This document shows, one piece after another, positions 112-22,915 of a stretch of 64,000 bases of DNA. The stretch is from Patescibacteria group bacterium (GTDB lineage Bacteria; Patescibacteriota; Minisyncoccia; Phycocordibacterales; UBA1550). The translations under genes were made by a program, and so were the position numbers. A model generated the notes under the pieces. It was not told the origin of the DNA, did no database searches, and saw nothing but the letters and a program-made list of their open reading frames with translations. The stretch spans positions 85,240-149,239 of the forward strand of contig JBBUDU010000002.1 in the NCBI GenBank assembly GCA_038057125.1. The letters are read 5' to 3'. Position 1 is the stretch's first letter. Every line of letters begins with the position of its first letter.

Positions 112-600
112 TCAGTTTCCAAATAAGTTCAAAATGTACGTCTGTATTGATCGCGTTGTCGTACCAACGACAGGGCTCCACCATGACACAAACACATTAA
201 CTAGCTTAGTCTCAGGATCATACGTTCCCGATGTAGCAATATCATTATTTAAATCGCGCTTAACGTCTGAAATGGTGAACCCGCGCTCAAACTTTCCGTC
301 GACAAGTGTTACAGCTGTTGTCCTTTCCCAGTTTGTACCGTTCCATAAAAAATAGTAAGTGGTTGTTGTAGATAGGCTAAAAATGTTGCTTGTATAGTTA
401 GTGTCGCGAAAAATCTTTACCACCTCAATACCTTCTTCAAGGAGGTAATCTCCTTGAATTGCCGACCCCGTTACGTTACTTGCGCGAAGTGTCGCCTGAA
501 AAAAAGTTGAAATACCCAAAAGAGATACAGACAGTACTGCTGAAGCAACAACAACTTCAACAAGACCGAAACCACGTGTGTAATATTGATTTTTTTTCAT
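112..600 (-). CDS. pilin-like protein with prepilin-type signal
   Basis: N-terminus MKKNQYYTRG/FGLVEVVVASAVL has Gly-1, Phe+1, Glu+5 and a hydrophobic helix. It sits in an operon with pilC and two other pilin-like genes. Confidence 0.75.
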   Translation of the reverse strand: MKKNQYYTRGFGLVEVVVASAVLSVSLLGISTFFQATLRASNVTGSAIQGDYLLEEGIEVVKIFRDTNYTSNIFSLSTTTTYYFLWNGTNWERTTAVTLVDGKFERGFTISDVKRDLNNDIATSGTYDPETKLVNVFVSWWSPVVGTTTRSIQTYILNLFGN

Positions 601-606
601 TTGTTA

Positions 607-1071
607 TTAATTAATTGTAGCAACCCCCGTCTGGAGTATCAATACTGTGGTACTTGCGGTCGTCCCCGTGACCAAAAGTGTCGTCGTTGCATTTTGAGTC
701 GTCGCACCGGTTATTTTTTGAAAAACAACTTCAGAGCCGCCGCCGTTTATCGTTGTAGTTGCTATGGTAAGAGAGAGATCAAAAATGTGTTCTTCGTTTG
801 TTGTCGAGGTCGCCACATAAGTCGTCCCCTGAAACAACACTATTTTCCCGGACTCAAAATATACACCGAATTGATTGTCGTTTTTTGATGAAACAGACAG
901 GAGACGTGCGCGGTTGATAGTCGTCAACAGTTCTTGTGTTTCCGTGTTTAAAATACTTTTTTGTCGGAAGGTTACGAACGAAGGGATTATGGTTGCAAGA
1001 AGAATACCCAAAATTGAAATTACGATGACTATCTCGAGGGCGGTAAAACCAGAACGGGTGAAATATTTCAT
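607..1071 (-). CDS. pilin/pseudopilin-like protein with prepilin-type signal
   Basis: N-terminus MKYFTRSG/FTALEIVIVISILGILLA is the classic prepilin cleavage/methylation motif. The start lies 1 nt from the pilC stop. Confidence 0.8.
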   Translation of the reverse strand: MKYFTRSGFTALEIVIVISILGILLATIIPSFVTFRQKSILNTETQELLTTINRARLLSVSSKNDNQFGVYFESGKIVLFQGTTYVATSTTNEEHIFDLSLTIATTTINGGGSEVVFQKITGATTQNATTTLLVTGTTASTTVLILQTGVATIN

Positions 1072-1072
1072 A

Positions 1073-2287
1073 TTAGATATTACTCATCACGCTATACATC
1101 GGCGAAATCATCGAGATTGCAAAAAATCCAACCGATACGCCAATGACCACCATAAGAACAGGTTCTATAATCGTCGACATATTTTTTGTTGCCTCATCAA
1201 CTTCGTTCTCGTAAAAGAGCGCGACATTGAGAAGCATTGCGGAAAGCTTTCCCGTCTCCTCTCCCACTTCAACCATATCGCCTACTAAAATTGGATAAAT
1301 ATCATTACCCGCAAAAACCGACGAAAGCGGAATACCTTTTTGAACACGCTCGCCCGCAAGAATCATCAAGTCCTTGTAGTACGAATTCTGGAGAACATCT
1401 TTTGTAATGTTGATTGCCGCGACCATATCGACGCCTGATGAAAGGAGCGACGAAAGCGTGCGGGTTGTGCGTGCCGCATTCGACTGACGCACAAGGTTTC
1501 CAACAATCGGCAATCGAAAAGATATTGTCTCAAATGCGCGCTTTCCTTTCTTTGTTCTGAGTATCATAATGATAGCCGTCACGGATCCAAAAACAGCGAG
1601 GGCTACCAACAAAAAGTTGTTCGACAAAGTATCGGATATCCAAATGATAACTTTTGTGCTCGTAGGAAGCTCGGTATTAAGGTCTTTGAATGTCGCGGCA
1701 AGAGTGGGGACCACGAAAATAAACATGAGCACCGCGATAATGAGAAGCGTTACGATAACAACCGCCGGATAAATCATAGCACCCTTAATCTTTTTTTTCA
1801 GCAAATAGCTTTTTTCAAGCTGATCGCCTACAACCAAAAGTGAGTCGGAAAGTCCGCCCGACTCTTCTCCTGCACGCACCATGGAAATAAAAATTGGTGA
1901 GAAAACTTTTGGGAACTTTGCCATTCCCGCCGAGAGCGTGGACCCGCGGCTGATTTCACTTACCAAGGTTTCAATAGTTTTTTTAAACGCAAGGTTTTTT
2001 GTTTGCCGACCCAAAATAGAAAGACCGCGAGAAAGGGAGAGTCCGGCTTTCATTATCGCGCTCAAGTTGTGCGCAAGTACAATGAGCTCTTGCATCTTTA
2101 CGCGTGAAAACATCGCGTTTATAGAATCCATGCTGAGTGTGAACCCGCTACTCATCTCCTCGACAGACACGACAGATTTACCGCTACTTCGCAAGTCTGA
2201 TGCAACGGCAAAACGATCCGCGGCTTCCATCTCGCCCGCGGTCTCTTCTCCCGACAGCTCCCGCACTCTGTATTTAAATTTTGGCAT
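1073..2287 (-). CDS. pilC: type IV pilus assembly platform protein PilC (GspF family)
   Basis: 404 aa with an internally duplicated GspF-type domain; the signature occurs twice (RAGEESGGL and EVGEETGKL). Three TM helices. Followed by pilin genes. Confidence 0.9.
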   Translation of the reverse strand: MPKFKYRVRELSGEETAGEMEAADRFAVASDLRSSGKSVVSVEEMSSGFTLSMDSINAMFSRVKMQELIVLAHNLSAIMKAGLSLSRGLSILGRQTKNLAFKKTIETLVSEISRGSTLSAGMAKFPKVFSPIFISMVRAGEESGGLSDSLLVVGDQLEKSYLLKKKIKGAMIYPAVVIVTLLIIAVLMFIFVVPTLAATFKDLNTELPTSTKVIIWISDTLSNNFLLVALAVFGSVTAIIMILRTKKGKRAFETISFRLPIVGNLVRQSNAARTTRTLSSLLSSGVDMVAAINITKDVLQNSYYKDLMILAGERVQKGIPLSSVFAGNDIYPILVGDMVEVGEETGKLSAMLLNVALFYENEVDEATKNMSTIIEPVLMVVIGVSVGFFAISMISPMYSVMSNI

Positions 2288-2332
2288 TGATTATATACTC
2301 TACAGTATATCAAAGTTTATTATTTTTCATTA
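2262..2332. repeat. 71-bp perfect direct repeat, copy 1 (last codons of paralog + 32-nt spacer + first 9 codons of pilC)
   Basis: Identical base for base to 3631-3701. Contains the inverted repeat ATATACT-CTAC-AGTATAT and TATAAT 2 nt upstream of the ATG (minus strand). Confidence 0.95.
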
Positions 2333-3405
2333 GTTTTATAGATTTTCTTCTCCCCACTCGGCAGTTCATACTGCAGTTCGGTATCGGAGAGCCACTCGGG
2401 TTTAAACCAGAATATAGGTTCATTTGTTGTTTCTATGAGTTTTTTTTCTTTTGTAAAAAGGTTATAGAGATAGAGAATTGATTTTTTGCCTTCCCGCTTA
2501 TGTTGTTCTTTTAATTCTTGGTCGAATTCAACATCTCCTGTCCAAACCTGTCCTGGCTGAATTGGGAGATAACCGGTATTAACATTGAGCGGAGAACCAC
2601 CCATAGCGCCGTTCGGCGCTTCAAATATCTCAGCTTTCCAATTTTGAGTATCTATCCTGAAGTAGCCGTTAACATAGGCGCCGTCAAAAATATCACCCCA
2701 GAAGTATCTGCTGTCATCTGTCCACGTATCAAAACCGAAACTTCCTGCCATATTTGGATATTGATCAAAGGTTGATTTTGCCGACAAAACAAAGACGTCT
2801 TTCAGGGTTTTGAGGTCTTTGATGATGAGTGCGTAGTCATCCTGACCGAGGTAACCTTTCTCGAGGGCGATATATTGTTCAAGCGGGGAGACGCGGAAGG
2901 TGGGGGAATAGTTATTGTTATTAAGATTATCTTCTTTTCCAAAATCAAACAAAACCATCAATAATTTCCCTCCTTCATTATTATAACCGTACTGCCACAA
3001 TTCGCCTCTATAATTTGGTAATGGTAATCCTTTTCCGTTATCATAATTAAAATCTTGAATAAAATAAACACCACATTTATGTAATTCCATAGGGTACGCA
3101 GAATCTCGAACATTATTAATTCGAAAGCTCTTAATTGCCACTCCTGTGTTTCTATTTTTTACAAAAATCAGCGGAGACCTTTCTTTAGGCTGAGTAATCT
3201 CTGGGAACAAGCTCGCACGATCATAATCGGCTATTTCATTTTCTTCTAGACATCCGTTTGGTGATAATTCCTTTTGTGTAACTTGCGTTTGATTGTTGTT
3301 TGCTTGACTAGCTGGTTTTTTTGAAAAGACAGAATAAATAACGCTTGCACCAATAACAAACAGAGCGACAACAAGAATACTCAAGATTGTAGTTTTTCTG
3401 CTCAT
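2320..3405 (-). CDS. membrane-anchored hypothetical protein, paralog A
   Basis: 361 aa with an N-terminal TM anchor. Full-length similarity to the 3689-4762 product, with shared blocks FRVSP.EQYIAL.KGY, IIKD.KTLKDVFVL and WLSDTELQYELP.GEKKIYK.NEK. Confidence 0.7.
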   Translation of the reverse strand: MSRKTTILSILVVALFVIGASVIYSVFSKKPASQANNNQTQVTQKELSPNGCLEENEIADYDRASLFPEITQPKERSPLIFVKNRNTGVAIKSFRINNVRDSAYPMELHKCGVYFIQDFNYDNGKGLPLPNYRGELWQYGYNNEGGKLLMVLFDFGKEDNLNNNNYSPTFRVSPLEQYIALEKGYLGQDDYALIIKDLKTLKDVFVLSAKSTFDQYPNMAGSFGFDTWTDDSRYFWGDIFDGAYVNGYFRIDTQNWKAEIFEAPNGAMGGSPLNVNTGYLPIQPGQVWTGDVEFDQELKEQHKREGKKSILYLYNLFTKEKKLIETTNEPIFWFKPEWLSDTELQYELPSGEKKIYKTNEK

Positions 3406-3410
3406 GGTAG

Positions 3411-3656
3411 TTAATATTCAAACCCAAGCACTCCCGATTTTGTAGTCAGTTTAACAATCACCAGTCCGGAAAGTGTTTGCTTGGTTTCCTCCTCGCCATT
3501 CTTTTTAACTTTTATTTCCGTTTCATTCTTCTCGCGACTATACTTTGCTTTGATTTCAAAAGCCTCTTTGCTTTCAATTTTCTGCTCCAATTCTTTAATT
3601 TCGCCTTCGGTTTCATCTCCAGACAATTCGCGCACTCTGTATTTAAATTTTGGCAT
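3411..3656 (-). CDS. 81-aa chimeric ORF (duplicated PilC N-terminus fused to a copy of the C-terminal module of the 1036-aa protein)
   Basis: The first 13 aa, MPKFKYRVRELSG, equal the PilC start. The remainder aligns to the last ~68 aa of the 5490-8600 product (KELEQK; LSGLVIVKLTTKSGVLGFEY vs FTGLRILKLMTDKGNLTVEY). Confidence 0.4.
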   Translation of the reverse strand: MPKFKYRVRELSGDETEGEIKELEQKIESKEAFEIKAKYSREKNETEIKVKKNGEEETKQTLSGLVIVKLTTKSGVLGFEY

Positions 3657-3701
3657 TGATTATATACTCTACAGTATATCAAAGTTTATTATTTTTCATT
3701 A
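3631..3701. repeat. 71-bp perfect direct repeat, copy 2
   Basis: Identical to 2262-2332. Identity decays gradually on both sides. Confidence 0.95.
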
Positions 3702-4762
3702 ATTTTGTATATCTTCTTTTCCCCAGTCGGCAACTCGTATTGAAGTTCAGTATCGGATAGCCAATAGGGTCGGAAATAATAAGTAGGGTCAGTGGTTGTG
3801 GCGATAAGATATTTCTTTTTTGTAAATAGGTTGTAAATGTAAAAAGAGGAGATTTGCCCAGTTTGTATTGCTTCTTTTTGAATTTGCTGGTCAATTTCCA
3901 CAACTCCAGACCAAGGAGCAACATCTTCCCCATAAGTTAACATCCCATTGTTTATGTTAAGCGCATCGCCACCCATTGTCATTTTGGGCGCAGGAAGCAC
4001 CTCGTATGTCCAATCTATTGTATTGATACGAACGAATCCATATACCTCGGCACCAATGAACATATTGACCCAAAGATATTTACCGTCGGAAGTCCAACCA
4101 CCAGGATTAAAACCAATATCACCCGCTACCTCGGGATTCTTTTTTGTTACGTCTGTAATCGGTAATACAAAAACATCTTTCAGCGTCTTGATGTCCTTGA
4201 TGACGATGGAATGATCATCTCTGCCTCCATATCCTTTTATGAGAGCGATATATTGTTCAAAGGGGGAGACACGAAAACTACCAGTATAGTATGAAATAAA
4301 TTCTTTTGGTTTCTCTGCCATCAAAATAATAGGTTCCCCATTCCCAGAATAATTATATTTCCACAGCTCTTCTTTATATCCTACATCGTGCTTTCCTTTT
4401 TTGGGATCATAATTAAATATCCTAACCACATAAATATTACATTTAAATAGCTGCAGAGTGAAAAGTCCGGTAGAATTGCCACTTATCTGAAAATTACGCC
4501 TTTCCAAATTAGTTATTTTATCTTTTACAAAAATTGTTACGGGGGATGTTGCAAAATATCCCATATTCCCCTTTCCACGAAGTGCCGAATTTTCACCTAT
4601 TTCGTCATCCATTAAGCAAGCATCATCTATCGACCTGCTGTCCACGATGAACTCCTGCACCACTGGTGTAATCTTCCTAATACCCCAAACATAATACCCG
4701 CCCACAACAAAAGCAATGATGGCGAGGAGTACGATAATAAAAACATATTTACCAAATTTCAT
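3689..4762 (-). CDS. membrane-anchored hypothetical protein, paralog B
   Basis: 357 aa with an N-terminal TM anchor (VFIIVLLAIIAFVVGGYYVW). Paralog of the 2320-3405 product. Confidence 0.7.
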   Translation of the reverse strand: MKFGKYVFIIVLLAIIAFVVGGYYVWGIRKITPVVQEFIVDSRSIDDACLMDDEIGENSALRGKGNMGYFATSPVTIFVKDKITNLERRNFQISGNSTGLFTLQLFKCNIYVVRIFNYDPKKGKHDVGYKEELWKYNYSGNGEPIILMAEKPKEFISYYTGSFRVSPFEQYIALIKGYGGRDDHSIVIKDIKTLKDVFVLPITDVTKKNPEVAGDIGFNPGGWTSDGKYLWVNMFIGAEVYGFVRINTIDWTYEVLPAPKMTMGGDALNINNGMLTYGEDVAPWSGVVEIDQQIQKEAIQTGQISSFYIYNLFTKKKYLIATTTDPTYYFRPYWLSDTELQYELPTGEKKIYKINEK

Positions 4763-4763: not shown

Positions 4764-4892
4764 TTAATAATCTATTGTTTGCGTATTGTTTGCACTTGGT
4801 TTTTGTGGAAACTGCTTACGCAGGTATACCACTGCGCCGGTGGTGAATAGAGCAAGGATGATAAGCGACGCGATGATGGTTTTCTTGGTCAT
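4764..4892 (-). CDS. possible 42-aa single-TM peptide
   Basis: Own translation: MTKKTIIASLIILALFTTGAVVYLRKQFPQKPSANNTQTIDY. Its ATG overlaps the upstream stop (ATGA) and it fills an otherwise empty gap in the operon. It is below the ORF-track size cut-off. Confidence 0.35.
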   Translation of the reverse strand: MTKKTIIASLIILALFTTGAVVYLRKQFPQKPSANNTQTIDY

Positions 4893-5485
4893 TTGGTAAA
4901 TTTAAAGGTGGAGAGAATACTCTTTAATCCTACCTCGTGCTGACCTTCTACGCCAAACAAAACAATAAATTCATGCAACGGGAAAAAAACGTCTACCATT
5001 TTCATCCCTTCAAAATCATAGCGATATTGAGTTCCAGTAATATTATCAATCATAATTTCAGACTTTTTAGCGTTCAATCTTTGCATATTGATTAGGTAGT
5101 ATTTTAAAAAATCCTGGGGCTGAGTAACTATACTAATAGAATCTTGCTGATTTGTATTTTCCCCATCAATCTTCATTACCGTCGTGTTAAATTTATTAGA
5201 TGGATCTGTGGATACATTCTCTTCCCACTCCCACCCCTCCGGATACCAGAACTCAAAACCAAACTCTTCATTGCGATAGAGTTTCATACCAGGATGATTC
5301 TTGCTCGTTTGCGGTTGTGTTGTTGACGAAGAAATGCTGGTCGTGCTTAGTGCTTGTGTAGAGGTCGCAACAATAACTCCGATGTTGTTGAGATAATTTG
5401 TCTGTTGATATCGATACACAATTCCTATTATCGTTAGCGTGCCGACCAATATCACTACCACCGCGATGATTATTTTCTTTTTCAT
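4889..5485 (-). CDS. membrane-anchored hypothetical protein
   Basis: The track ORF starts at a TTG (5500). The ATG at 5485 gives MKKKIIIAVVVILVG, a TM anchor followed by a Ser/Thr linker and a globular domain (FGFEFWYPEGW). Confidence 0.6.
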   Translation of the reverse strand: MKKKIIIAVVVILVGTLTIIGIVYRYQQTNYLNNIGVIVATSTQALSTTSISSSTTQPQTSKNHPGMKLYRNEEFGFEFWYPEGWEWEENVSTDPSNKFNTTVMKIDGENTNQQDSISIVTQPQDFLKYYLINMQRLNAKKSEIMIDNITGTQYRYDFEGMKMVDVFFPLHEFIVLFGVEGQHEVGLKSILSTFKFTK

Positions 5486-5489
5486 GGTG

Positions 5490-8400
5490 CTAATATTCAA
5501 CAGTTAAGTTTCCCTTGTCCGTCATCAGCTTCAGAATCCTCAATCCTGTAAAAGTTTCTTTGACTCCGCTGGTGTCGTCATCTTCATTGTTATCATTGTT
5601 CCCTTTGATTTTCTTTTTAATTTTTGTGGTGTTTTTCTTCGCATCATAGTGTGCCTCAATTTTTAGGGTACCCACCGTCGTTTTTTGTTCAAGTTCTTTG
5701 AGGTTTCCCGACTTATCCACAGACCATTCGTATTTTAGTGTAGTTTTAGGAATTGTGCTCGTTAATACACCGTTATAGACAAGTCCACCCAGCTCCAGTT
5801 TAATTTCTTTTTTCCCTTGCTTATATTTACTGAAAATGATTTGAAGGGTATTGTCTGATTTGTCGGCAACAATCGTGCTCGTGGCAGTGGTTGAGACCAT
5901 GGTGGCGGAAAGATTGTCGGTGCCGATGATATTCAATTTTTGCGTAACTACATCAAAGGTTAGGGTCGCCTCGGGAGGCGTGGTGTCAAGGGTGATGGAA
6001 TTGTCGGCTCCAACAACGACACCGTATCCACCGGTAACTGGTATTTGACTCAATGGAACATTTTGCGCCAGCGGGATAGTAGTACTACCGGCAGTGAAAT
6101 CAAGGGAGTAGGTTTGGTCGGGAGTTGTACTTGCCATCGGAGAAATCTGTATACGGTAGGTGCCTTGTTTGAGGACGGGAGAGTAGGCAACATCCTCGGG
6201 GTAGCCCTGTGGGTCTATGTCTATCGTAGTATACATAAGATCACCGGATGACCGAATGTATTCTTCGTCGGTTGAAACGCCGGCAGTATCAGAAACACTA
6301 TTACCATCTGGGTCGGTAACAGAAAGGTGTATTGGTGAATGCTTGGTAATAGCCATGGCGATAGTGGCATTTTTGGGACGACCAAAGGCGACAAAACCTG
6401 AAACTTGTTTGTATGAATTTTTTAACTTGCCTTCAATTTTTTTACCTGGTTTTGGTGCGCTAACTACATCAAAGCCCCCGCTCTCACCAACATACATAGC
6501 CTCATGGTCAATACGCCCATTTCCATCCCAATCAAAAAATAACAAATCCCCAGGCTGCAAATCTGACTCTGCTACTGGCTGTACATTGTTGTAATATTGA
6601 TCATTCGCACTTTCATATTTAATAAAATTAGAGACAAAGTTTTTATGTGGATTATTTGATCGATTGTATGACCATCCAATTAAACCGGAACAATCAACAC
6701 CATCCCCTATCCCAAAATCTCCCTTCCCTGGCGCCTTGGCATCAGGATTCCAGTATTTGTAATTTGTCTTTACGGTATTAGTGTCAGTAAAAAGTCTGTT
6801 TGCAAAATCCCACCCTTTACCACCCCAAAGATAGTTCTGGTTTAACAACTCCTTTGCCAAGTCCGCTGCTTTTATATTTAAAGGTACCTTCACCTCAAAA
6901 TCTACATTCCCCACCACACCAAACTCCTGCCACGCACTCGTATTCCCCTTGTCGTCCACCGCTCGCGCGCGCCAGTGATACGCACCTTCAGGAATAGAAT
7001 TTTCTGTGGTGGTGGCAATACCTCCAGAAACAACGAAACTGCTTTCTAAAAGATTTGTTCCATCAAACAGTTGGCTTGATTCTTTTAATTCTACTTGGAG
7101 CTTAATGTGGTCATTGTCGATGTCGGAGAGAGTTGCTTCAAAAACAACTCTTTGTTCGGCAGTCATTACTCCTTCATTAATTGTAGTTACGCCGTCCGAT
7201 TTAAATTGCAAAATATTTGAAATTGTCGGTGGTTGATTGACGGGAACCTTCCACCCATCCTGTGTTATCCACGGCAAATTATCCTGGTCGCCGTAGAAAA
7301 CATACGGTGAATCACAGAAGTTGTCACTGTTTGCATCATTGCAACCCTCGACTGGCGTATCGTAATCGCTCCAATAGTTGCCACTGACTGGAGAAACAAG
7401 ATTGAATATGTTGCCACTGCCACCACTAACATAAGTCTGCGTGGAGTTATTGATAAAATTGTTATTATAGATTTGATTACCACTGGAATAATAGAAATGG
7501 ATTCCATAGTAATTATTTGACACAGTATTGCTGGTTATGGTGTTGCCACTGGAATAGGAAAGATAGGTTCCTAAATAATTATTAGATGTAGTGTTGTTGG
7601 TCAGGGTGTTATTATTACTGAAATAGTATAATTCAATTCCGGAAACATTATTTGATACATTGTTGTTGGTCAGCATATTGCCCATGGAAGAGTAGAAAAG
7701 TAGAATTCCTCTGCTGTTATTATTTAACGAAGTATTACTGGTCAGTGTGTTGCCACTGGAAGAGTAGAGGAAGATTCCGATGTTATTATTTGATAGGGTA
7801 GTGTTACTAGTCAGTGTGTTTCCAGTGGAAGATTCAAGGTAGATTCCATGGTAATTATTTGATAAAATGTTGTTGGCTATGGTATTCTTACTCGAAAAGT
7901 AAAGATAGATTCCGAATGAAAATTTTTTAATAATGAAGTTTCTGACAGTAACGCCAGTTCTTCCGTAAAGATAGACACCGGTTCCAGTATTGCTTCCTGT
8001 CAGAGTGTGGCCGTTGCCATCTAAGGTTACACTATCACTATCTATCTGAATGGTCTCGGTTAAATCTATATTAAGTGTGCAGGTTTTAGTAGTGATATCC
8101 CAATTACCGATGAGGTAACAATCGCCGCCAGTGGTGTCGTCTTTGATAAACTTGGTGCTGTGGCGTGGCTGGATGAAAATTACATGATTGGTTGATATAT
8201 CTTGTGTATATGAATATGCTCCACTACCGTCCGATTTGAATTCGGTTAGATTATGATAATTATCCTCATATCTATAGTATATGGTGCTTGGTTGGAAACC
8301 ATGAAGGGTTATTTGGGTTGAGGTGGAGGAAGTTGAAAAAGTGGGTGGCCATATCATCATAGTTACCATCTCGGGGACTGATTCCAGTTTTAATTTGACG

Positions 8401-8600
8401 GATTCAGTGCTGTCTAAAGTAATATTAAGGTAGCTACTATCGGTAATAGAAAAACTTGTACCAATACCTTCTGTTGTGCCTGCTGGAGTAAGTACGAACG
8501 AAGGAGGTATAACTTGTGCAGAGGCAGTATTGGCAATCAAAAAAACAGAAGAAACGACAAATAAAAATGAGGTTAGTGCGAAATCGCGCAAGGAAATCAT
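5490..8600 (-). CDS. large exported protein: parallel beta-helix repeats + NlpC/P60-type cell-wall peptidase domain
   Basis: 1036 aa.
- N-terminal signal-like segment ending ANTASAQ.
- About 10 tandem ~22-aa Asn/Ser-rich units (N.L..N..GI.L..SS.N).
- Papain-like NlpC/P60 signature DCSGLIGWSY ... GRIDHEAMYVG.
- Ig-like C-terminal part. Confidence 0.85.
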   Translation of the reverse strand: MISLRDFALTSFLFVVSSVFLIANTASAQVIPPSFVLTPAGTTEGIGTSFSITDSSYLNITLDSTESVKLKLESVPEMVTMMIWPPTFSTSSTSTQITLHGFQPSTIYYRYEDNYHNLTEFKSDGSGAYSYTQDISTNHVIFIQPRHSTKFIKDDTTGGDCYLIGNWDITTKTCTLNIDLTETIQIDSDSVTLDGNGHTLTGSNTGTGVYLYGRTGVTVRNFIIKKFSFGIYLYFSSKNTIANNILSNNYHGIYLESSTGNTLTSNTTLSNNNIGIFLYSSSGNTLTSNTSLNNNSRGILLFYSSMGNMLTNNNVSNNVSGIELYYFSNNNTLTNNTTSNNYLGTYLSYSSGNTITSNTVSNNYYGIHFYYSSGNQIYNNNFINNSTQTYVSGGSGNIFNLVSPVSGNYWSDYDTPVEGCNDANSDNFCDSPYVFYGDQDNLPWITQDGWKVPVNQPPTISNILQFKSDGVTTINEGVMTAEQRVVFEATLSDIDNDHIKLQVELKESSQLFDGTNLLESSFVVSGGIATTTENSIPEGAYHWRARAVDDKGNTSAWQEFGVVGNVDFEVKVPLNIKAADLAKELLNQNYLWGGKGWDFANRLFTDTNTVKTNYKYWNPDAKAPGKGDFGIGDGVDCSGLIGWSYNRSNNPHKNFVSNFIKYESANDQYYNNVQPVAESDLQPGDLLFFDWDGNGRIDHEAMYVGESGGFDVVSAPKPGKKIEGKLKNSYKQVSGFVAFGRPKNATIAMAITKHSPIHLSVTDPDGNSVSDTAGVSTDEEYIRSSGDLMYTTIDIDPQGYPEDVAYSPVLKQGTYRIQISPMASTTPDQTYSLDFTAGSTTIPLAQNVPLSQIPVTGGYGVVVGADNSITLDTTPPEATLTFDVVTQKLNIIGTDNLSATMVSTTATSTIVADKSDNTLQIIFSKYKQGKKEIKLELGGLVYNGVLTSTIPKTTLKYEWSVDKSGNLKELEQKTTVGTLKIEAHYDAKKNTTKIKKKIKGNNDNNEDDDTSGVKETFTGLRILKLMTDKGNLTVEY

Positions 8601-8797
8601 ATGCCGTAACTCTAGGTAAAAAGTGGAGTGGTGTCAAGTGCAAAAAGAAACAATGAACAACTAATTATTTGCATCTAAACCCCTCGACTTTTTAATCAGC
8701 TGACGGGTCACCAGAGCCGTGTCTTGGGCACTGGGCTTGGACATAAACACCTTGAAGACTTCCAACTCGTTTTATTCCCACTATCTGACCGCCAATA

Positions 8798-8861
8798 TAA
8801 AATAAATATCCTGCATAATAAGTTCACGACCGTGAACTTATTATGCAGGATATTTATTTTA
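8798..8861 (-). terminator. 31-bp-arm perfect palindrome downstream of pilB
   Basis: Arms 8798-8828 and 8831-8861 pair at every position (checked base by base), with a 2-nt centre. AT-rich and followed by a T-run on the minus strand. Confidence 0.6.
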
Positions 8862-8989: not shown

Positions 8990-10738
8990 TCATTCTGACA
9001 CCACACGCAATACTTCTTCTATTGTTGTCATTCCTTGCACTGACTTCAATATACCGTCTTCGAGCATCGTACTCATCCCTTCTTTTTTTGCATGCTCTTC
9101 AATGGCGACTGGAGTTTCTCCTTTCATGATGAGGTCGCGGATAGTAGGAGACATTTTCAAAACCTCGTGAATGCCCACACGGCCTTTGTAGCCGTCCTCC
9201 GACTCTTCTGATTTTTTGGGACGATAAAACGGAATATCTTTCCATGTTGCATTTGGCGCAACGATGTTTTCTTCTTTCAAAACTTTCATCACGCGGTCAA
9301 GGTCAACAGATTTTTTAAGCGCATCGACTTCGGCGGGACTAAGGAAATATTTTTCTTTTGAGGAGGCTAGTCGGCGCACAAGACGCTGTGCGATGATAAC
9401 ATTTACCGTTGAAACAATGAGGAACGGCTCGATATCCATATCGAGAAGACGTGGCATTGTGGCGGCGGCTGAGTTTGTGTGGAGCGTTGAAAGCACGAGG
9501 TGCCCCGTGAGCGCTGCATTCACCGCAAGCGACGCCGTTTCATTGTCACGAATTTCACCTACCATAATGATGTCCGGATCCTGACGAACGAGAGAGCGAA
9601 GACCGGAGGCAAAAGTGAGTCCTATCTCCGTCTTTACCTGCGTTTGATTTACGCGGGTCATTTGGTATTCAATCGGGTCTTCAATGGTGGAAATATTCAC
9701 ATCGGGCTCGTTTAAAATGTCCAAAATAGTATAGAGCGTTGTCGATTTACCGGACCCTGTCGGCCCCGTGGTGAGAATCATTCCCACGCGCTGTTTTGTG
9801 GCTGCATAAATACGCTCGAGCCCGGCGCCGTGAAAACCAAGACCCTCGAGAGTAAAACCAGAAACCGATTCACGCAAAAGACGCATAACCGTCTTCTCTC
9901 CGTAGTAGACAGGAAGAGTAGACACACGAAATGCAACTTTCTCTCCAGCCGATTCTATTTTGAAACGCCCGTCTTGCGGAAGACGCTTTTCATCGAGCTT
10001 CAAACTTGCAAGCACTTTAATGCGCGCGACAATTCCCGGAGCCGCGGTTTTTGGCAGAACCATCGCATCATGCAAAAGCCCGTCGATGCGATACCTTATG
10101 ACTACTTGCGAGTCCATCGGCTCAATATGAATATCTGACGCGCCCTGAATGATTGCGTGGTTGAGCAGAGTGTCCACTATCTTTACCACTGGCAAATCCT
10201 CGGCGAGTTTTTTCAAGTCCTCTTCGCTTTGCGCTTCATCGCCTTCCGCGACCATCTTGAGCGCGCTCGCCTCTTTTTCAATGATGTCACCAAACTCCGC
10301 CTTAAGACTCTTCTGATACTGGAGAAGCATTCCTTTAATAGATTCTTTGTCGGTGAGGCGTGGGAGAATCTTTAGTCCAACTTTCTTTTTGACGAACTCA
10401 ATAGCGCCGAGGTCGTCCGTGTCGAGCATCGCAACTTCAAGAGCGGAAGGTGTCTTCTTAAATGCGACAATATTGTGCTTGCGGGCGATCGGCTCCGGAA
10501 TAAGCGAGAGGATTTCAAAATCAATTTTCTGTCCTTTCAAATTTACAAAAGGAATACCGAGGATATATGCTTCCGTGCGACTGAGGTCGTCTTCGGAAAG
10601 TTTTCCTTCAGAAACGAGGATGTCCCCAAGGTACATCTTCTTTTCGACGGCACGCTTCTCGGCGTTTTCAAGCTCTGTGCGCGGTACGAGCCCCGAGTCG
10701 ATGATGAAATCCTTGAGCTGTTGATTGTTAACGGTCAT
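8990..10738 (-). CDS. pilB: type IV pilus assembly ATPase PilB (GspE family)
   Basis: 582 aa with Walker A GPTGSGKST, IIMVGEIRD, and His box LTGHLVLSTLHT. N-terminal GspE-N type domain. Confidence 0.92.
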   Translation of the reverse strand: MTVNNQQLKDFIIDSGLVPRTELENAEKRAVEKKMYLGDILVSEGKLSEDDLSRTEAYILGIPFVNLKGQKIDFEILSLIPEPIARKHNIVAFKKTPSALEVAMLDTDDLGAIEFVKKKVGLKILPRLTDKESIKGMLLQYQKSLKAEFGDIIEKEASALKMVAEGDEAQSEEDLKKLAEDLPVVKIVDTLLNHAIIQGASDIHIEPMDSQVVIRYRIDGLLHDAMVLPKTAAPGIVARIKVLASLKLDEKRLPQDGRFKIESAGEKVAFRVSTLPVYYGEKTVMRLLRESVSGFTLEGLGFHGAGLERIYAATKQRVGMILTTGPTGSGKSTTLYTILDILNEPDVNISTIEDPIEYQMTRVNQTQVKTEIGLTFASGLRSLVRQDPDIIMVGEIRDNETASLAVNAALTGHLVLSTLHTNSAAATMPRLLDMDIEPFLIVSTVNVIIAQRLVRRLASSKEKYFLSPAEVDALKKSVDLDRVMKVLKEENIVAPNATWKDIPFYRPKKSEESEDGYKGRVGIHEVLKMSPTIRDLIMKGETPVAIEEHAKKEGMSTMLEDGILKSVQGMTTIEEVLRVVSE

Positions 10739-18465: not shown

Positions 18466-18536
18466 TGCGGGATGGGAGAATCGAACTCCCGCCAAGAGTT
18501 TGGAAAACTCCTATTCTACCATTAAACTAATCCCGC
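18466..18536 (-). tRNA. tRNA-Gly (anticodon UCC)
   Basis: Hand-folded 71 nt: acceptor GCGGGAT/ATCCCGC, D arm GTTT-AATGGTA-GAAT, anticodon arm GGAGT-TTTCCAA-ACTCT, T arm GGGAG-TTCGATT-CTCCC. CCA is not encoded. Confidence 0.9.
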
Positions 18537-18636
18537 GATTAAAACCTCTCAAGACAATAGCAAAAGCACAGATGTTTCGCAAATATGTCCCCAAAACATC
18601 TGTACTACTACATACTACGACTGAAAGCCTGCCACT

Positions 18637-19521
18637 CTACCCAACAATCGATCGCACCTTCGTCACGATCTCGTCAAGCGTGAAGTTTGCCTTTACCATA
18701 AAGTCTTTTGCTCCAAGCGCCATTGCTTTATCGAGGTCTTCTTTCTGACCAAGGTTGCTCAAAATAACAACGGGAACGTCCATAATCTTTGGATCTGCTT
18801 TAATCCGCGCAAGAATTTCAAATCCATCTGTGCCGGGTAAAATAAGGTCACAGAGAATCATATTTGGCTTACGCTCAGACAAAATTGCAAACGCCGCCAC
18901 TGCGTCAATTGCGTTTTGAACATCAAACCCCTCACTCGCAAGCTTGCGCACCAAAAGCTCGCGCAAAAATTTGTCATCCTCAATAACAAGGATAAACTTT
19001 TTTTTGCCACCAGTTGATGGTGTTGTAACATCTGTCACGCCTTGCGACATTTTATAGACTGGGGCCTCTGCCACGGCTTCTGAAACCCCTGAGCTGTTTA
19101 CATTTTGTGTGCGCACACCCCATTCCCCTCTAGGAGCCGCGGCAACTCCTCCGAGTACGCGCTCTACTTTTTCAAGGACTTCGTTTGGGTCAAACACTGC
19201 TTTGATCAAAAATTCTCGCGCGCCAAGCTCTTGTGCTCGCTTTATCTCCACTGGTTGACCGGAATTTGAAATAATAATAACTGGAATATCGCGAAGTGTT
19301 GGATCTGCATGTATCTCTTCCAATACCTCAATACCACCCTTGCGCGGCATAAGGATATCCAAGAGCACGCAATCAGGCCTGACGGCGCGAATCTTTTCTA
19401 TGGCGACAATACCGTCCTCTGCTATGTCCACAACATAACCGCTCTTTTCAAGTTTTTGTGCAAGGACATCACGGAGTACCGCGTCGTCTTCCACAATGAT
19501 AATTCTTTTTTTCTCTTCCAT
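18637..19521 (-). CDS. response regulator with two receiver domains and no output domain
   Basis: Two REC modules (IIIVEDDAVLRD...VLLDILMPRKGG and ILVIEDDKFLRE...ILCDLILPGTDG). Confidence 0.85.
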   Translation of the reverse strand: MEEKKRIIIVEDDAVLRDVLAQKLEKSGYVVDIAEDGIVAIEKIRAVRPDCVLLDILMPRKGGIEVLEEIHADPTLRDIPVIIISNSGQPVEIKRAQELGAREFLIKAVFDPNEVLEKVERVLGGVAAAPRGEWGVRTQNVNSSGVSEAVAEAPVYKMSQGVTDVTTPSTGGKKKFILVIEDDKFLRELLVRKLASEGFDVQNAIDAVAAFAILSERKPNMILCDLILPGTDGFEILARIKADPKIMDVPVVILSNLGQKEDLDKAMALGAKDFMVKANFTLDEIVTKVRSIVG

Positions 19522-19612
19522 GATGATTCTGTGTTATTGAGGGTACTATTATTATAGTATAAAATTGATGTCTACGCTATCAAATTAACCTTCTGTATTA
19601 CTCCTGATCGCA

Positions 19613-21517: not shown

Positions 21518-21576
21518 ATTACTTTACAGTATACACCACTAATGGAGAAAAATGATTGGTGACATGTGGAGAATTG

Positions 21577-21668
21577 TGCCCTCATGAGGAGTCTGCCAAG
21601 CGCTCGCTCGACCCGTTTTGTTAAACGGGTAAACCCGAGCTCACTTTCGACTCCTCGTTCGCGCTACA
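21577..21668. other. degenerate tRNA-end-derived element next to tRNA-Arg(CCG)
   Basis: Starts with a 17-nt copy (TGCCCTCATGAGGAGTC) of the tRNA-Arg(CCG) 3' end. Contains GCGCTCGCTCGACCC, a hairpin ACCCGTTT-TGTT-AAACGGGT, and an inverted T-loop copy TTTCGACTCCTC. There is no closing acceptor complement. Confidence 0.45.
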
Positions 21669-21712
21669 AAAACATACTCCAAAAATGCTTCGCATTTGTT
21701 TCGTTCTTTTTG

Positions 21713-21784
21713 TGCCCTCATGAGGAGTCGAACCTCAATTACAAGCTTCGGAAGCTTGTGTCCTATCCGTTGAACGATAAGGGC
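21713..21784 (-). tRNA. tRNA-Arg (anticodon CCG)
   Basis: Hand-folded 72 nt: acceptor GCCCTTA/TGAGGGC, anticodon arm CAAGC-TTCCGAA-GCTTG, T arm TGAGG-TTCGACT-CCTCA. Confidence 0.88.
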
Positions 21785-21835
21785 TTTTTGGTACTGTGGT
21801 CCGTTGTACCACGAGCGCAGGTTTGGAAAAGTAGA

Positions 21836-22915
21836 CTAATTAATCTCAATGTCGATATGCCGCACCGTGGGTATTTCTTTTTTAATCCGCGCCTCAAGCT
21901 CGTCGATGCGCGTACCGATAACGCGCGGCACACGATCGGTAAACTCCACGCAAAAGCGCACAAACTCCTGATAGTCCTCTTTTGCGATTTCATAATCCTC
22001 TTTTAGCATTACACCATTTGAAACTTCTCGAAAAAGAGCCGAGCCATTTATCTCCACCTCGCACTTTGCTCGATATTTTCCAAGCTCCACGACAGATGAT
22101 TTAAAATCGTACACACGCTCAATCATTGGGTCAGATACGAGCATTTCAATAATACGATCTTTCACTTCTTCAGGAATTGATTTCTCCACTAAAAAACGTT
22201 TATTTTTTAATATCAAAACTACCGCGACCCAAGCCAAAAGCCCGCCGATAACAATAGAACCCATTGCGTCCCAAACAGGGTTGCCGGTAACGTACGAGAG
22301 TCCGACAGAAACAGTGGCGACAAAAATGCCAAATACAGCAACACCATCTTCATACACAACAGCAAGAACCGTCGGGTCGCCATCGCGAAGCGTGTCGCCA
22401 AGCGTTGTCCCGTCCCCTCTCTGGCTCCGCAATTCACGAAATGCAATCAAAAATGTAATAAGCTCAACAATAAACGAAATTGCAAGAATAAAAAATATTA
22501 TCGGTTCAAACACAAGCTCACTTGGACTAAAGAGTGTTGAAACACCGTGGTATATAGTAATACCGGCGCCTACAAAGAAAACTCCGCAGGCTGAAATAAG
22601 CGCCCAAAAGAAACGTTCTAGTCCGTATCCATAAGAAGAGTCCTCGTCTGGAGCACGACGGCTCTTCACAATACCAACCATCAGAAGCGCTTGATTGGCC
22701 GTGTCTGCAAAACTATGCACGGCCTCAGAAAAAAGAGAGCTCGACCCTGAGATGGCAAAACCAATGGTTTTAAGGATCGTAATAACAAAATTACCCAAAA
22801 GTGCCGCAATAACTGAAACAAAGCCGGGCTCACGTCTGTGGATAACTGACGATTTACCAAATTTCATGGCTTGGCCATGAATTATTCCACTATTAAGTTT
22901 TTCTTTTTTCTTCAT
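21836..22915 (-). CDS. cation diffusion facilitator (CDF) family transporter
   Basis: 359 aa with six TM helices, a HSFADTANQ motif in TM2, and a C-terminal cytoplasmic domain. Confidence 0.85.
   Translation of the reverse strand: MKKKEKLNSGIIHGQAMKFGKSSVIHRREPGFVSVIAALLGNFVITILKTIGFAISGSSSLFSEAVHSFADTANQALLMVGIVKSRRAPDEDSSYGYGLERFFWALISACGVFFVGAGITIYHGVSTLFSPSELVFEPIIFFILAISFIVELITFLIAFRELRSQRGDGTTLGDTLRDGDPTVLAVVYEDGVAVFGIFVATVSVGLSYVTGNPVWDAMGSIVIGGLLAWVAVVLILKNKRFLVEKSIPEEVKDRIIEMLVSDPMIERVYDFKSSVVELGKYRAKCEVEINGSALFREVSNGVMLKEDYEIAKEDYQEFVRFCVEFTDRVPRVIGTRIDELEARIKKEIPTVRHIDIEIN

What the first reader, a model, noticed from the sequence alone, without database searches (positions are those of the whole stretch)
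5490..8600. 1036-aa exported beta-helix protein carrying an NlpC/P60 peptidase
The protein combines several parts:
- a signal-like N-terminus,
- roughly ten Asn/Ser-rich ~22-aa repeats typical of right-handed parallel beta-helices (adhesin/lyase-like),
- Ig-like regions,
- a papain-like NlpC/P60 catalytic pair (DCSGL...H-EAMYVG).

A cell-wall hydrolase embedded in an adhesin-like scaffold, encoded inside a pilus operon, is a plausible tool for attacking or remodelling a host or partner cell wall. Its C-terminal module (...GLRILKLMTDKGNLTVEY) is duplicated in the 81-aa ORF, which hints at a sorting or anchoring signal.
Basis: partly seen in the sequence, partly recalled or inferred. Interest (0 to 1): 0.55.

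Follow-up and report, generated by a model that had tools for sequence, protein, structure and literature searches.

The report
Exported beta-helix cell-wall peptidase, Patescibacteria
An ultrasmall (Patescibacteria) bacterium encodes, between its pilus motor genes, a large exported protein that carries a peptidoglycan-cutting NlpC/P60 peptidase on a rigid beta-helix stalk; the peptidase almost always comes with a membrane-anchored partner gene and ends in an undescribed tail domain shared by hundreds of other exported enzymes, so it is a candidate tool for working on a host cell wall.

Summary
ORF 5490-8600 (minus strand) encodes a 1036-aa protein identical to NCBI MEK7148449.1, annotated only as "NosD domain-containing protein" from a Patescibacteria MAG.

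Domain order: Sec signal peptide; beta-sandwich; right-handed beta-helix of about 10 coils with no conserved charged residues; Ig-like domain; NlpC/P60 peptidase (Cys637 and His699 invariant and aligned to known catalytic residues); beta-sandwich; 165-aa C-terminal module.

New findings:
- The Ig-P60-beta-sandwich core is widespread in Patescibacteria. A membrane-anchored PsbP_2-like gene follows it in 15 of 16 evaluable species-representative loci.
- Type IV pilus genes lie within 10 kb in about half of evaluable loci, often in the order pilB, P60 gene, PsbP-like gene, then pilT/pilC.
- The C-terminal module has 614 representative clusters. It is terminal in nearly all listed long hits, mostly on LCAT-type lipases, and no Pfam model matched it.
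- The 81-aa ORF is a recombination scar: the pilC start fused to the 3' end of a lost NosD-C39 paralog.

Whether the enzyme cuts host wall or the cell's own wall is unresolved; I favour host wall (0.45). I rate it a new variant of a known kind, of moderate interest.

The parts
8517..8600 (-). Sec-type signal peptide (aa 1-28, predicted cleavage after TASA)
   Evidence: The only hydrophobic windows in the protein; modelled as a helix at residues 4-19 followed by disorder; AxA-Q/E site conserved in homologs. No signal-peptide predictor was available.
8151..8483 (-). N-terminal beta-sandwich domain (aa 40-150), conserved with the beta-helix scaffold
   Evidence: pLDDT 84-93; consensus GTHFEITDSxYLN...YYKYQDDYHNLTEF in 21 homologs; tblastn hits in the scaffold loci L001-L009, L012, L014 and L026.
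7245..8150 (-). Right-handed parallel beta-helix (aa 151-452) with N-cap and C-cap, two conserved Cys pairs (C161/C174, C420/C429) and an Asn ladder
   Evidence: Pfam NosD 3.8e-37 and Beta_helix 1.4e-27, TIGR03804 7e-31; pLDDT above 90; Foldseek matches to glucanases, phage tailspikes and NosD; only G, N, T, F, I and Y residues are conserved within the coils.
6906..7238 (-). Ig-like domain (aa 455-565), present in only a subset of the beta-helix homologs but usual in front of the P60 domain elsewhere
   Evidence: Big_13 7.9e-4, sub-threshold; pLDDT about 80; found in front of the P60 domain in 12 of the 18 GTDB loci L010-L027.
6366..6899 (-). NlpC/P60 (MEROPS C40) peptidase domain (aa 568-745); Cys637 codon 6690-6692, His699 codon 6504-6506, third triad position Ser714
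   Evidence: PF00877 35.9 bits against a cut-off of 23; profile against PDB 1e-8 to 1e-3 to 14 NlpC/P60 structures with Cys and His aligned; C637 and H699 invariant in 21 of 21 homologs; position 714 is S7/N7/E5/Q2.
5991..6365 (-). Beta-sandwich domain (aa 746-870) that always accompanies this P60 domain
   Evidence: Follows the P60 domain in 25 of the 29 GTDB loci L010-L038; two of the four without a hit end at or just past the P60 match. pLDDT 55-80. A related segment precedes the C-terminal module in lipases (consensus).
5493..5987 (-). 165-aa C-terminal module (aa 872-1036) ending ...GLRILKLMTDKGNLTVEY
   Evidence: 614 representative clusters at E <= 1e-3 and 178 at <= 1e-10; at the extreme C-terminus in nearly all listed long hits. 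Cargo census: LCAT 34 of 42, Beta_helix 9, C39_2 3. No Pfam or NCBIfam model hit it. pLDDT below 45.
4889..5500 (-). Partner gene: membrane-anchored PsbP_2-like protein (203 aa from the TTG start; probable ATG at 5485). It overlaps or abuts the stop codon of the peptidase gene.
   Evidence: N-terminal hydrophobic anchor. PF18933 matched by 11 of 14 family members, best 1.5e-8. A homolog lies directly downstream of the P60 gene in 15 of 16 evaluable GTDB loci and in L001 and L003-L006. Fused to the enzyme in P0012.
3689..4762 (-). Membrane-anchored beta-propeller protein (357 aa), paralog of the gene at 2320-3405
   Evidence: 39% identical to the 361-aa paralog (P0332). No Pfam hit. N-terminal hydrophobic anchor.
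3411..3656 (-). 81-aa chimeric ORF: a copy of the pilC start (first 20 aa) fused to the last ~61 aa of a C-terminal module from a lost NosD-C39 paralog
   Evidence: DNA repeat 2224-2466 against 3593-3835 at 80%, with a 75-nt core at 100%. 53% identical (5e-18) to the C-terminus of the L007 589-aa ORF, and closely similar to the C-terminus of the L009 NosD-C39 protein. NCBI calls it a hypothetical protein, MEK7148445.1.
2320..3405 (-). Membrane-anchored beta-propeller protein (361 aa)
   Evidence: AlphaFold2 pLDDT 89 with a TM helix at residues 3-28. Foldseek matches TolB and prolyl-oligopeptidase propellers at about 1e-6. 69% identical to P0239, which follows a NosD-C39 gene in L009.
8798..8861 (.). 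Perfect 31-nt inverted repeat (terminator-like hairpin) between pilB and the peptidase gene
8609..8637 (-). Promoter-like site TTGACA-17-TAGAGT, ending 8 nt before the ATG
   Evidence: This is a consensus match only.
8990..10738 (-). PilB-type assembly ATPase (context)
   Evidence: T2SSE 4.9e-123 and MshEN 1.4e-11.
112..2287 (-). PilC platform protein (1073-2287) and two pseudopilins (607-1071, 112-600) (context)
   Evidence: T2SSF 5.1e-50; N_methyl 4.6e-4 and 1.3e-4.

Best explanation
What it is (shown by the data): a Sec-exported modular enzyme. A conserved N-terminal beta-sandwich and a beta-helix of about 10 coils form a stalk. No charged residue is conserved in the coils, so I infer the stalk is rigid and non-catalytic, or glycan-binding. 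The stalk carries an Ig-like domain, a canonical (non-permuted) NlpC/P60 cysteine peptidase, a beta-sandwich and a 165-aa C-terminal module.

How it most likely works (inferred):
1. After export the protein stays at the cell surface, held by its C-terminal module. The membrane-anchored beta-propeller proteins encoded next to it may be the docking partners.
2. The stalk holds the P60 domain away from the producer's own wall.
3. Cys637 and His699 cleave peptidoglycan stem peptides of the host or partner cell at the contact site made by the type IV pili, with which the gene is co-located and probably co-expressed.
4. The tightly coupled, membrane-anchored PsbP_2-like partner keeps the enzyme from damaging the producer's own peptidoglycan (an immunity or regulator role).

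The same stalk and the same C-terminal module also carry LCAT-type lipases and C39-like peptidases in other Patescibacteria. I read the protein as one member of a family of exported enzymes that degrade cell envelopes.
For: - Domains and catalytic residues.
- Export: N-terminal signal conserved in homologs.
- Non-catalytic helix: only G, N, T, F, I and Y residues are conserved in the coils.
- Shared stalk with other envelope-degrading enzymes (C39_2, LCAT, M23, PGAP1).
- Shared C-terminal module, mainly on lipases, including one Tle3-like hit.
- P60 and PsbP_2-like gene pair in 15 of 16 evaluable GTDB loci plus L001 and L003-L006; two tandem pairs in L029.
- Pilus genes within 10 kb in 7 of 14 evaluable loci, with a recurring order pilB, P60, PsbP, then pilT/pilC. 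The two other-enzyme scaffold loci examined with wide flanks (L007, L008) have no pilus genes.
- Loci are dynamic, with tandem duplications and decayed paralogs, as is typical of interaction or conflict genes.
- The organism has a PBP transpeptidase, so it probably has its own peptidoglycan to protect.
- Cultivated Patescibacteria are epibionts that use type IV pili to bind hosts (PMC12206443, PMC11880426).
Against: - No activity, localisation or expression data exist.
- The target wall (host or self) is not addressed by any result here.
- The near-universal P60 and PsbP_2 pairing fits a housekeeping autolysin with a regulator just as well.
- Half of the loci have no pilus genes nearby.
- The third catalytic position is Ser here, which is unusual for the family.
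- The P60 domain and the C-terminal module are poorly modelled (pLDDT 45-70 and below 45).
- Adjacency of the C-terminal module to a propeller gene is not conserved at P0121, P0123 or L008.
- The P0012 fusion of enzyme and partner is odd for an immunity protein.
- The closest solved relatives include hydrolases of conjugation machines, which act on the producer's own wall.
Confidence: 0.45

Rival explanations
1. Self-directed wall hydrolase. The enzyme cuts the producer's own peptidoglycan. It would either open gaps for the type IV pilus machine to cross the monoderm wall (like the dedicated hydrolases of conjugation and secretion machines) or act as the growth and division endopeptidase (like CwlO/LytE, RipC or MepS). 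The PsbP_2-like membrane protein would be its regulator or activator.
For: - The gene lies between pilB and pilC here and in L006, L010 and L026.
- The P60 and PsbP_2 pair is almost universal in the retrieved Patescibacteria loci, as expected for a core function.
- The nearest solved structures include Tn916-type conjugation hydrolases, MepS/Spr, CwlO and RipC.
- The organism probably makes peptidoglycan (PBP).
- The enzyme-partner fusion P0012 fits a regulator better than an inhibitor.
Against: - A stalk of about 550 residues and adhesin-like alternative scaffolds (Laminin_G_3, VWA, FG-GAP, fn3) are unusual for housekeeping autolysins.
- The same stalk and C-terminal tail carry lipases, which cannot serve wall growth.
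- Half of the loci lack pilus genes.
- The loci show duplication and decay typical of fast-evolving genes.
- From my own knowledge, dedicated NlpC/P60 hydrolases are not a known part of monoderm type IV pilus operons. This was not tested here.
Confidence: 0.33
2. Scavenging enzyme or adhesin. The protein is released or displayed to harvest peptides from free peptidoglycan debris. Alternatively the P60 domain is a weak or inactive binding module, so that the whole protein is mainly an adhesin.
For: - Patescibacteria have limited biosynthetic capacity (abstracts of PMC12102498 and PMC11665869).
- Ser sits at the third triad position.
- The stalk resembles carbohydrate-binding beta-helix proteins.
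Against: - Cys637, His699 and the surrounding motifs are invariant in 21 of 21 homologs, which argues for retained catalysis.
- A tightly coupled partner gene is not expected for a simple scavenger or adhesin.
Confidence: 0.12
3. Lipid-targeting NlpC/P60. The domain acts as a phospholipase or acyltransferase on membranes rather than on peptidoglycan, like the recently described lipid-targeting NlpC/P60 toxins.
For: - Such enzymes exist (PMC11996579 and PMC12994826, seen).
- The C-terminal module and the stalk are mostly attached to lipases.
Against: - All profile matches are to canonical peptidoglycan endopeptidases, with the YLxGGKGWD...DCSGL...DH motifs in the non-permuted order.
- NCBIfam's weak hits are to RipC and RipB.
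Confidence: 0.05

Closest known systems
NlpC/P60 (MEROPS C40) peptidoglycan DL-endopeptidases: RipC/RipA, CwlO/LytE, MepS/Spr, YkfC, Tn916 Orf14-type hydrolases
   Same: - The Pfam model scores above its gathering cut-off.
- The catalytic Cys (DCSGL) and His (DHxAMYVG) align.
- The order is non-permuted.
- The protein is exported.
   Different: - There is a ~35-residue insert between the conserved YLxGGKGWD motif and the catalytic Cys, and another insert before the His strand.
- The third triad residue is S, N, E or Q rather than His.
- The domain is always followed by a specific beta-sandwich and usually preceded by an Ig-like domain.
- Here it is mounted on a ~550-residue beta-helix stalk and ends in an undescribed 165-aa module.
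T6SS amidase effector and immunity pairs (Tae/Tai, Tse1/Tsi1, Ssp/Rap)
   Same: An NlpC/P60-fold wall hydrolase is encoded directly next to a small extracytoplasmic partner protein, and the pairing is conserved across species (PMC3695027, PMC3852654).
   Different: - There is no T6SS and no trafficking domain; export is by Sec.
- The partner is a membrane-anchored PsbP_2-like protein, unrelated to the Tai families.
- Inhibition has not been shown.
- The enzyme is ten times larger than a Tae effector.
Phage tailspike or depolymerase beta-helix proteins and CASH/NosD-type beta-helix surface proteins
   Same: Right-handed three-stranded beta-helix with an Asn ladder; Foldseek matches at E 1e-10 to 1e-4; profile hits to NosD and Beta_helix.
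   Different: - No acidic or basic residues are conserved in the coils, so no lyase or hydrolase site is evident.
- It is not a true NosD: TIGR04247 scores 79 bits against a cut-off of 300.
- Trimerisation was not examined.
Secreted factors encoded in type IV pilus operons (TcpF of Vibrio cholerae, CofJ of ETEC). This comparison comes from my own knowledge, not from a tool result.
   Same: A non-pilin exported protein encoded among the pilus biogenesis genes.
   Different: - No sequence relation.
- The pilus linkage holds in only about half of the loci.
- The organism is probably monoderm, so no outer-membrane secretion step is needed.
C-terminal sorting or anchoring domains (T9SS CTD, LPXTG sortase signals, SLH)
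   Same: The 165-aa module is located at the extreme C-terminus of nearly all listed long hits and sits on many unrelated exported enzymes.
   Different: - There is no LPXTG motif and no hydrophobic or charged tail.
- No Pfam model matched it.
- At 165 residues it is much longer than a signal peptide-type tag.
- Patescibacteria are not known to have a T9SS (my own knowledge).

Membership tests
NlpC/P60 (Pfam PF00877, MEROPS C40) | Profile match above the curated threshold | tested here: met
   35.9 bits against a cut-off of 23, E 7.8e-9, residues 632-707. A family profile hits 14 NlpC/P60 PDB sequences, best 1.1e-8.
NlpC/P60 (Pfam PF00877, MEROPS C40) | Catalytic Cys at the start of a helix, in a D/xCSG motif | tested here: met
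   Cys637 in GVDCSGL aligns with FDCSGL of RipC (8idc), 7cfl, 9ubf, 4fdy and 6biq. It is invariant in 21 of 21 homologs.
NlpC/P60 (Pfam PF00877, MEROPS C40) | Catalytic His on the following beta-strand (HxxxYxG) | tested here: met
   His699 in DHEAMYVG aligns with SHVGIYIG and THVGIYVG. It is invariant in 21 of 21 homologs.
NlpC/P60 (Pfam PF00877, MEROPS C40) | Third polar triad residue (His, Asn, Gln, Glu or Asp) about 12 residues after the catalytic His | tested here: inconclusive
   The position aligned with the His of MIHSP in 3h41 is Ser714 here. The column is S7/N7/E5/Q2 in homologs. The neighbouring Asp711 is conserved in 19 of 21. The model is too poor in this region to decide.
NlpC/P60 (Pfam PF00877, MEROPS C40) | Peptidoglycan stem-peptide hydrolysis | not testable with these tools
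   Needs an enzyme assay on sacculi or muropeptides.
Right-handed parallel beta-helix repeat proteins (PF13229, PF05048, TIGR03804) | Profile matches and a three-stranded coil fold | tested here: met
   E 1.4e-27, 3.8e-37 and 7.2e-31. About 10 coils with pLDDT above 90. Foldseek matches beta-helix enzymes and NosD 7osf.
NosD proper (nitrous oxide reductase maturation, TIGR04247) | Score at or above the family cut-off, and nos operon context | tested here: not met
   79.4 bits against a cut-off of 300. The context is pilus genes, not nosZDFYL. The public name "NosD domain-containing" describes only the fold.
Type IV pilus components (pilins or pseudopilins) | Class III (prepilin) signal with an N-methylation motif | tested here: not met
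   There is no N_methyl hit for this protein, whereas the two downstream pseudopilins have one. The N-terminus is a Sec type I-like signal.
Effector-immunity pair (Tae/Tai-like logic) | Conserved adjacent gene for a small extracytoplasmic partner | tested here: met
   A PsbP_2-like gene with an N-terminal membrane anchor lies directly downstream in 15 of 16 evaluable GTDB loci and in L001 and L003-L006.
Effector-immunity pair (Tae/Tai-like logic) | The partner binds and inhibits the enzyme | not testable with these tools
   No complex prediction or assay was available. The enzyme-partner fusion in P0012 argues weakly against simple inhibition.
Polymorphic toxin loci with orphan C-terminal cassettes (CDI/Rhs-like) | Variable C-terminal toxin domain after a conserved trafficking region, followed by cognate immunity genes and orphan CT-immunity modules | tested here: inconclusive
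   3' fragments lie next to propeller genes in the window, L007 and L009. However, the C-terminal module is the conserved part and the enzyme is the variable part, which is the reverse of the CDI/Rhs layout. The fragments are explained by paralog decay, shown by the reciprocal remnants in the window and L009.
Sortase (LPXTG) or other classical C-terminal sorting signals | LPXTG-like motif followed by a hydrophobic stretch and a basic tail | tested here: not met
   No LPx[TSA][GASN] motif is present. The last 40 residues have a mean hydropathy of -0.99 and contain no hydrophobic window.

The most novel reading that the evidence does not exclude
The 165-aa C-terminal module is a new, Patescibacteria-wide surface-retention or sorting domain for exported enzymes that degrade cell envelopes (lipases, C39-like peptidases and NlpC/P60 peptidases). 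The membrane-anchored beta-propeller proteins would be its docking partners. The P60 and PsbP_2-like pair would be a Sec-dependent effector-immunity module that epibionts use, together with type IV pili, to open the host cell wall. If so, this locus is part of the long-sought machinery by which ultrasmall bacteria breach and feed on their hosts.
Probability: 0.2. Interest if true: 0.8.

Novelty: new variant of a known kind. Interest (0 to 1): 0.5.

Why it matters
How Patescibacteria (CPR) epibionts get through a host's cell wall and obtain lipids, amino acids and nucleotides is an open question. Type IV pili are known to mediate attachment (PMC12206443, PMC11880426), but the enzymes that act on the host envelope are not defined.

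This analysis delimits three things that could be tested:
- a conserved Ig-P60-beta-sandwich peptidase cassette with an obligate PsbP_2-like partner;
- its recurrent placement between pilB and pilC;
- a C-terminal module, which no Pfam model matched, that links it to hundreds of exported lipase and peptidase clusters.

These are concrete candidates for biochemical assays and for genetics in cultivable Patescibacteria. If the self-directed reading is right instead, the cassette would be the main wall endopeptidase of a large, poorly understood bacterial radiation, with a new type of regulator. That would be useful to know but less surprising.

Tried and rejected
1. The full-length AlphaFold2 model, built from a 21-sequence alignment, was good for the stalk and the Ig-like domain but poor for the P60 domain (pLDDT 45-70) and the C-terminal module (below 45). 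No structural statement about the active site or the tail fold is possible.

2. The fold search of that model returned only generic beta-helix enzymes.

3. I tested the idea that the C-terminal module and the beta-propeller gene form an obligate pair. The adjacency holds in the window, L007 and L009. It fails at P0121, P0123, L008 and L001, so I keep it only as a possibility.

4. I considered an orphan-cassette (CDI/Rhs-like) reading of the 81-aa ORF. I rejected it as the primary explanation for two reasons. The window and L009 carry reciprocal remnants of each other's full-length paralogs. The layout is also inverted relative to polymorphic toxins.

5. The 81-aa ORF as evidence for a sorting signal is rejected. 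Its first 20 codons and upstream spacer are a copy of the pilC start.

6. A sortase or LPXTG signal, a prepilin signal and true NosD membership were each tested and not met.

7. A profile of the PsbP-like partner found no solved structure.

8. Five literature searches and two paper look-ups found no description of this family, of the P60 and PsbP_2 pairing or of the C-terminal module.

9. Contigs for P0121 and P0123 had no DNA available. Their ~200-aa downstream genes could not be confirmed as PsbP-like.

Full report
**1. The observation**

ORF 5490-8600 on the minus strand encodes 1036 aa. It is identical to NCBI MEK7148449.1, [quoted passage not shown], on a 306-kb contig. More than 1,100 proteins match it at E <= 1e-5, so it is a real gene.

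- **Signal peptide.** The N-terminus is Sec-type. The only hydrophobic windows in the protein start at residues 4-13, followed by TASA|Q. Homologs conserve the AxA-Q/E site.
- **Beta-helix.** Pfam NosD 3.8e-37, Beta_helix 1.4e-27 and TIGR03804 7e-31. The underlying DNA repeats have a 66-69 nt period. AlphaFold2 gives about 10 coils with pLDDT above 90.
- **Ig-like domain.** Residues 455-565; Big_13 is sub-threshold and pLDDT is about 80.
- **NlpC/P60 domain.** It scores above Pfam's cut-off, 35.9 bits against 23.

The window is chromosomal. dnaA and dnaN lie at 58.7-61.4 kb, and a PBP transpeptidase is also encoded, so the organism probably makes its own peptidoglycan.

**2. Anatomy**

From 21 homologs with the same architecture, the structure model and the residue counts, the parts are:

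| Residues | Part |
|---|---|
| 1-28 | signal peptide |
| 40-150 | conserved beta-sandwich |
| 151-452 | beta-helix with N-cap and C-cap |
| 455-565 | Ig-like domain, present in only some beta-helix homologs |
| 568-745 | NlpC/P60 domain |
| 746-870 | beta-sandwich |
| 872-1036 | C-terminal module |

The caps of the beta-helix each hold a conserved Cys pair (C161/C174 and C420/C429) and clusters of conserved Asp. Inside the coils only G, N, T, F, I and Y are conserved. With no conserved acid or base there, I infer a structural or binding stalk rather than a lyase or hydrolase. The fold search returned generic beta-helix enzymes, phage tailspikes and NosD. The protein is not a true NosD: TIGR04247 scores 79 bits against a cut-off of 300.

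**3. The peptidase**

Cys637 (GVDCSGL) and His699 (DHEAMYVG) align with the catalytic residues of RipC, YkfC-type, Tn916-type, CwlO and MepS enzymes. Both are invariant in 21 of 21 homologs. The order is Cys before His, the canonical P60 arrangement.

The third triad position, which aligns with the His of MIHSP in 3h41, is Ser714 here. The column reads S7/N7/E5/Q2 across homologs. All of these are polar, but Ser is unusual, so this feature is inconclusive.

The subfamily also differs from canonical P60 domains in two ways visible in the sequence. It has an invariant YLxGGKGWD motif, and about 35 residues separate that motif from the catalytic Cys.

**4. What travels with what**

- **The core cassette.** A search with the C-terminal half alone showed that the P60 plus beta-sandwich cassette sits behind many different N-terminal scaffolds in Patescibacteria: beta-helix, Laminin_G_3, VWA, FG-GAP, fn3 or none. 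In 18 close species-representative loci (L010-L027), only 3 have the beta-helix. Twelve of the 18 have the Ig-like domain in front.
- **The stalk.** The beta-helix stalk in turn carries other enzymes in other proteins: Peptidase_C39_2, LCAT/PGAP1 lipases, M23 and metallophosphatase.
- **The C-terminal module.** It has 614 representative clusters at E <= 1e-3 and 178 at <= 1e-10. In nearly all the listed long proteins it occupies the extreme C-terminus. Of 42 long carriers, 34 are LCAT-type lipases, 9 have a beta-helix and 3 have C39-like peptidases. No Pfam or NCBIfam model hit it. It has no LPXTG motif and no hydrophobic tail.

**5. Neighbours**

- **PsbP_2-like partner.** The gene directly downstream (4889-5500) abuts or overlaps the stop codon of the peptidase gene. 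It encodes an N-terminally membrane-anchored PsbP_2-like protein; 11 of 14 family members hit PF18933, best 1.5e-8. A homolog lies directly downstream of the P60 gene in 15 of 16 evaluable GTDB loci and in L001 and L003-L006. L029 has two tandem enzyme-partner pairs. In P0012 the partner is fused to the enzyme. This is the tightest association found.
- **Beta-propeller proteins.** The 357-aa and 361-aa proteins are specific to Patescibacteria and are membrane-anchored beta-propellers. The model has pLDDT 89, with TolB and prolyl-oligopeptidase propeller matches at about 1e-6. They follow beta-helix scaffold genes in the window, in L007 (twice) and in L009. By matching contig lengths they also appear to share contigs with five further scaffold genes. 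They are absent at L008, L001, P0121 and P0123.
- **Pilus genes.** PilB, PilC or PilT homologs lie within 10 kb in the window, L001, L005, L006, L010, L013 and L026. They are absent from L003, L004, L016, L017, L021, L023 and L024, which have wide flanks. The order pilB, P60, PsbP, then pilT/pilC recurs in the window, L006, L010 and L026. Two scaffold proteins with other enzymes, examined with wide flanks, are not in pilus loci. If pilus loci cover a few per cent of a ~1-Mb genome, which is my assumption, then 7 of 14 is far above chance. The linkage is still not obligatory.
- **Transcription signals.** In the window, a 20-bp-stem hairpin with a T-rich tail (8806-8853) and a TTGACA-17-TAGAGT site just before the ATG lie between pilB and the peptidase gene. 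This suggests the gene starts its own transcription unit, which may run on into pilC. These are consensus matches only.

**6. The 81-aa ORF**

The first 20 codons, the 32-nt spacer in front of them and the last ~147 nt of the preceding propeller gene are a copy of the corresponding segment around the pilC start. Identity is 80% over 243 nt, with a 75-nt core at 100%.

The remaining ~61 residues are 53% identical (5e-18) to the C-terminus of a 5'-truncated scaffold-C39 gene in L007. They are also closely similar to the C-terminus of the full NosD-C39 protein of L009. The propeller downstream of that L009 gene is 69% identical to the window's 361-aa protein.

Conversely, L009 carries an orphan 109-aa ORF that matches the window protein's own C-terminus (tblastn 1e-42).

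So the two genomes each hold a remnant of the paralog that the other keeps intact. The 81-aa ORF is a recombination scar. The junction lies at the FKY tripeptide, which the pilC N-terminus and the C-terminal module share. A related strain keeps the ORF open at 93% identity, but that does not show function.

**7. Mechanism**

*Shown:* an exported modular protein with an intact NlpC/P60 Cys/His pair on a beta-helix stalk; a conserved membrane-anchored partner; recurrent pilus linkage; and a shared C-terminal tail.

*Inferred (confidence 0.45):* the enzyme is held at the cell surface and cleaves stem peptides of a host or partner wall at pilus-mediated contacts. The PsbP_2-like protein protects or regulates the producer's side. 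The supports for this are:
- the stalk and the tail are shared with lipases and other envelope-degrading enzymes;
- the alternative scaffolds are adhesin-like;
- the loci are dynamic and duplication-prone;
- cultivated Patescibacteria live as epibionts that depend on pili to bind hosts (PMC12206443, PMC11880426).

*Main rival (0.33):* a self-directed hydrolase, for pilus passage through the wall or for wall growth, with the partner as its regulator. The supports are the near-universal pairing, the position between pilB and pilC, and the similarity to conjugation-machine hydrolases and housekeeping endopeptidases.

*Minor rivals:* a scavenging enzyme or adhesin (0.12), and a lipid-targeting NlpC/P60 (0.05).

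**8. Comparison and novelty**

The catalytic domain is a member of NlpC/P60, with the third triad residue unresolved. The stalk is a member of the parallel beta-helix repeat proteins and is not a NosD.

The pairing with an extracytoplasmic partner works like Tae/Tai effector-immunity pairs, but there is no homology and no T6SS.

The library searches found no paper describing this architecture, the P60 and PsbP_2 pairing or the C-terminal module. Public annotation stops at "NosD domain-containing" and "hypothetical".

I rate it a new variant of a known kind, with moderate interest (0.5). The more novel reading is a Patescibacteria-wide tail domain and a Sec-dependent effector-immunity module for breaching host walls. 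I give that a probability of about 0.2; it would be of high interest if true.

Noticed in passing
window 8798-8861: A perfect 31-nt inverted repeat with a 2-nt loop lies in the 389-nt gap between pilB and the peptidase gene. It scores as a terminator-like hairpin on both strands.
   Followed up: partly
window 2262-2336 and 3631-3705: These two 75-nt segments are 100% identical. Each covers the last codons of a propeller gene, a 32-nt spacer, the ATG and the first 8 codons (of pilC in one copy and of the 81-aa ORF in the other). The flanking sequence is only 73-80% identical. This indicates recent gene conversion or strong constraint on the spacer and start region.
   Followed up: partly
L009 11067-11396 (P0376); L007 12407-14176 and 15207-15992: 3'-terminal fragments of scaffold-enzyme genes, consisting of the C-terminal module with or without upstream domains, persist as open ORFs next to beta-propeller genes in three independent loci. 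About a quarter of the best 150 hits to the module are short ORFs. Paralog decay explains their origin. It does not explain why they recur.
   Followed up: partly
homologs P0012 and P0010 (alignment A1): P0012 carries the PsbP_2-like partner as a C-terminal extension of the NosD-P60 protein. P0010 ends in the C-terminus of the beta-propeller family. These could be real gene fusions or assembly artefacts on short contigs.
   Followed up: no
L029 1959-5829; L024 6252-14236: L029, a MAG labelled Saccharibacteria, has two tandem P60-beta-sandwich plus PsbP-like pairs. L024 has duplicated Ig-like, beta-sandwich, PsbP-like and propeller sets.
   Followed up: no
window 58706-63522: dnaA (58706-60064) and dnaN (60317-61417) lie here, and GC falls to 0.32 at 60-62 kb, so this is probably the replication origin region. 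A PBP transpeptidase is encoded at 61705-63522 on the minus strand.
   Followed up: partly
window 51975-53810: This ORF encodes a TraG/VirB4-like P-loop ATPase (PF19044, 2e-25), probably part of the monoderm-type type IV secretion system described for Patescibacteria (PMC12102498).
   Followed up: no
window 36047-38386 and 48027-50015: Two large ORFs (779 aa and 662 aa) have no Pfam hit at E <= 1e-5.
   Followed up: no
window 18466-24729: Five tRNA genes lie on the minus strand within about 6 kb.
   Followed up: no
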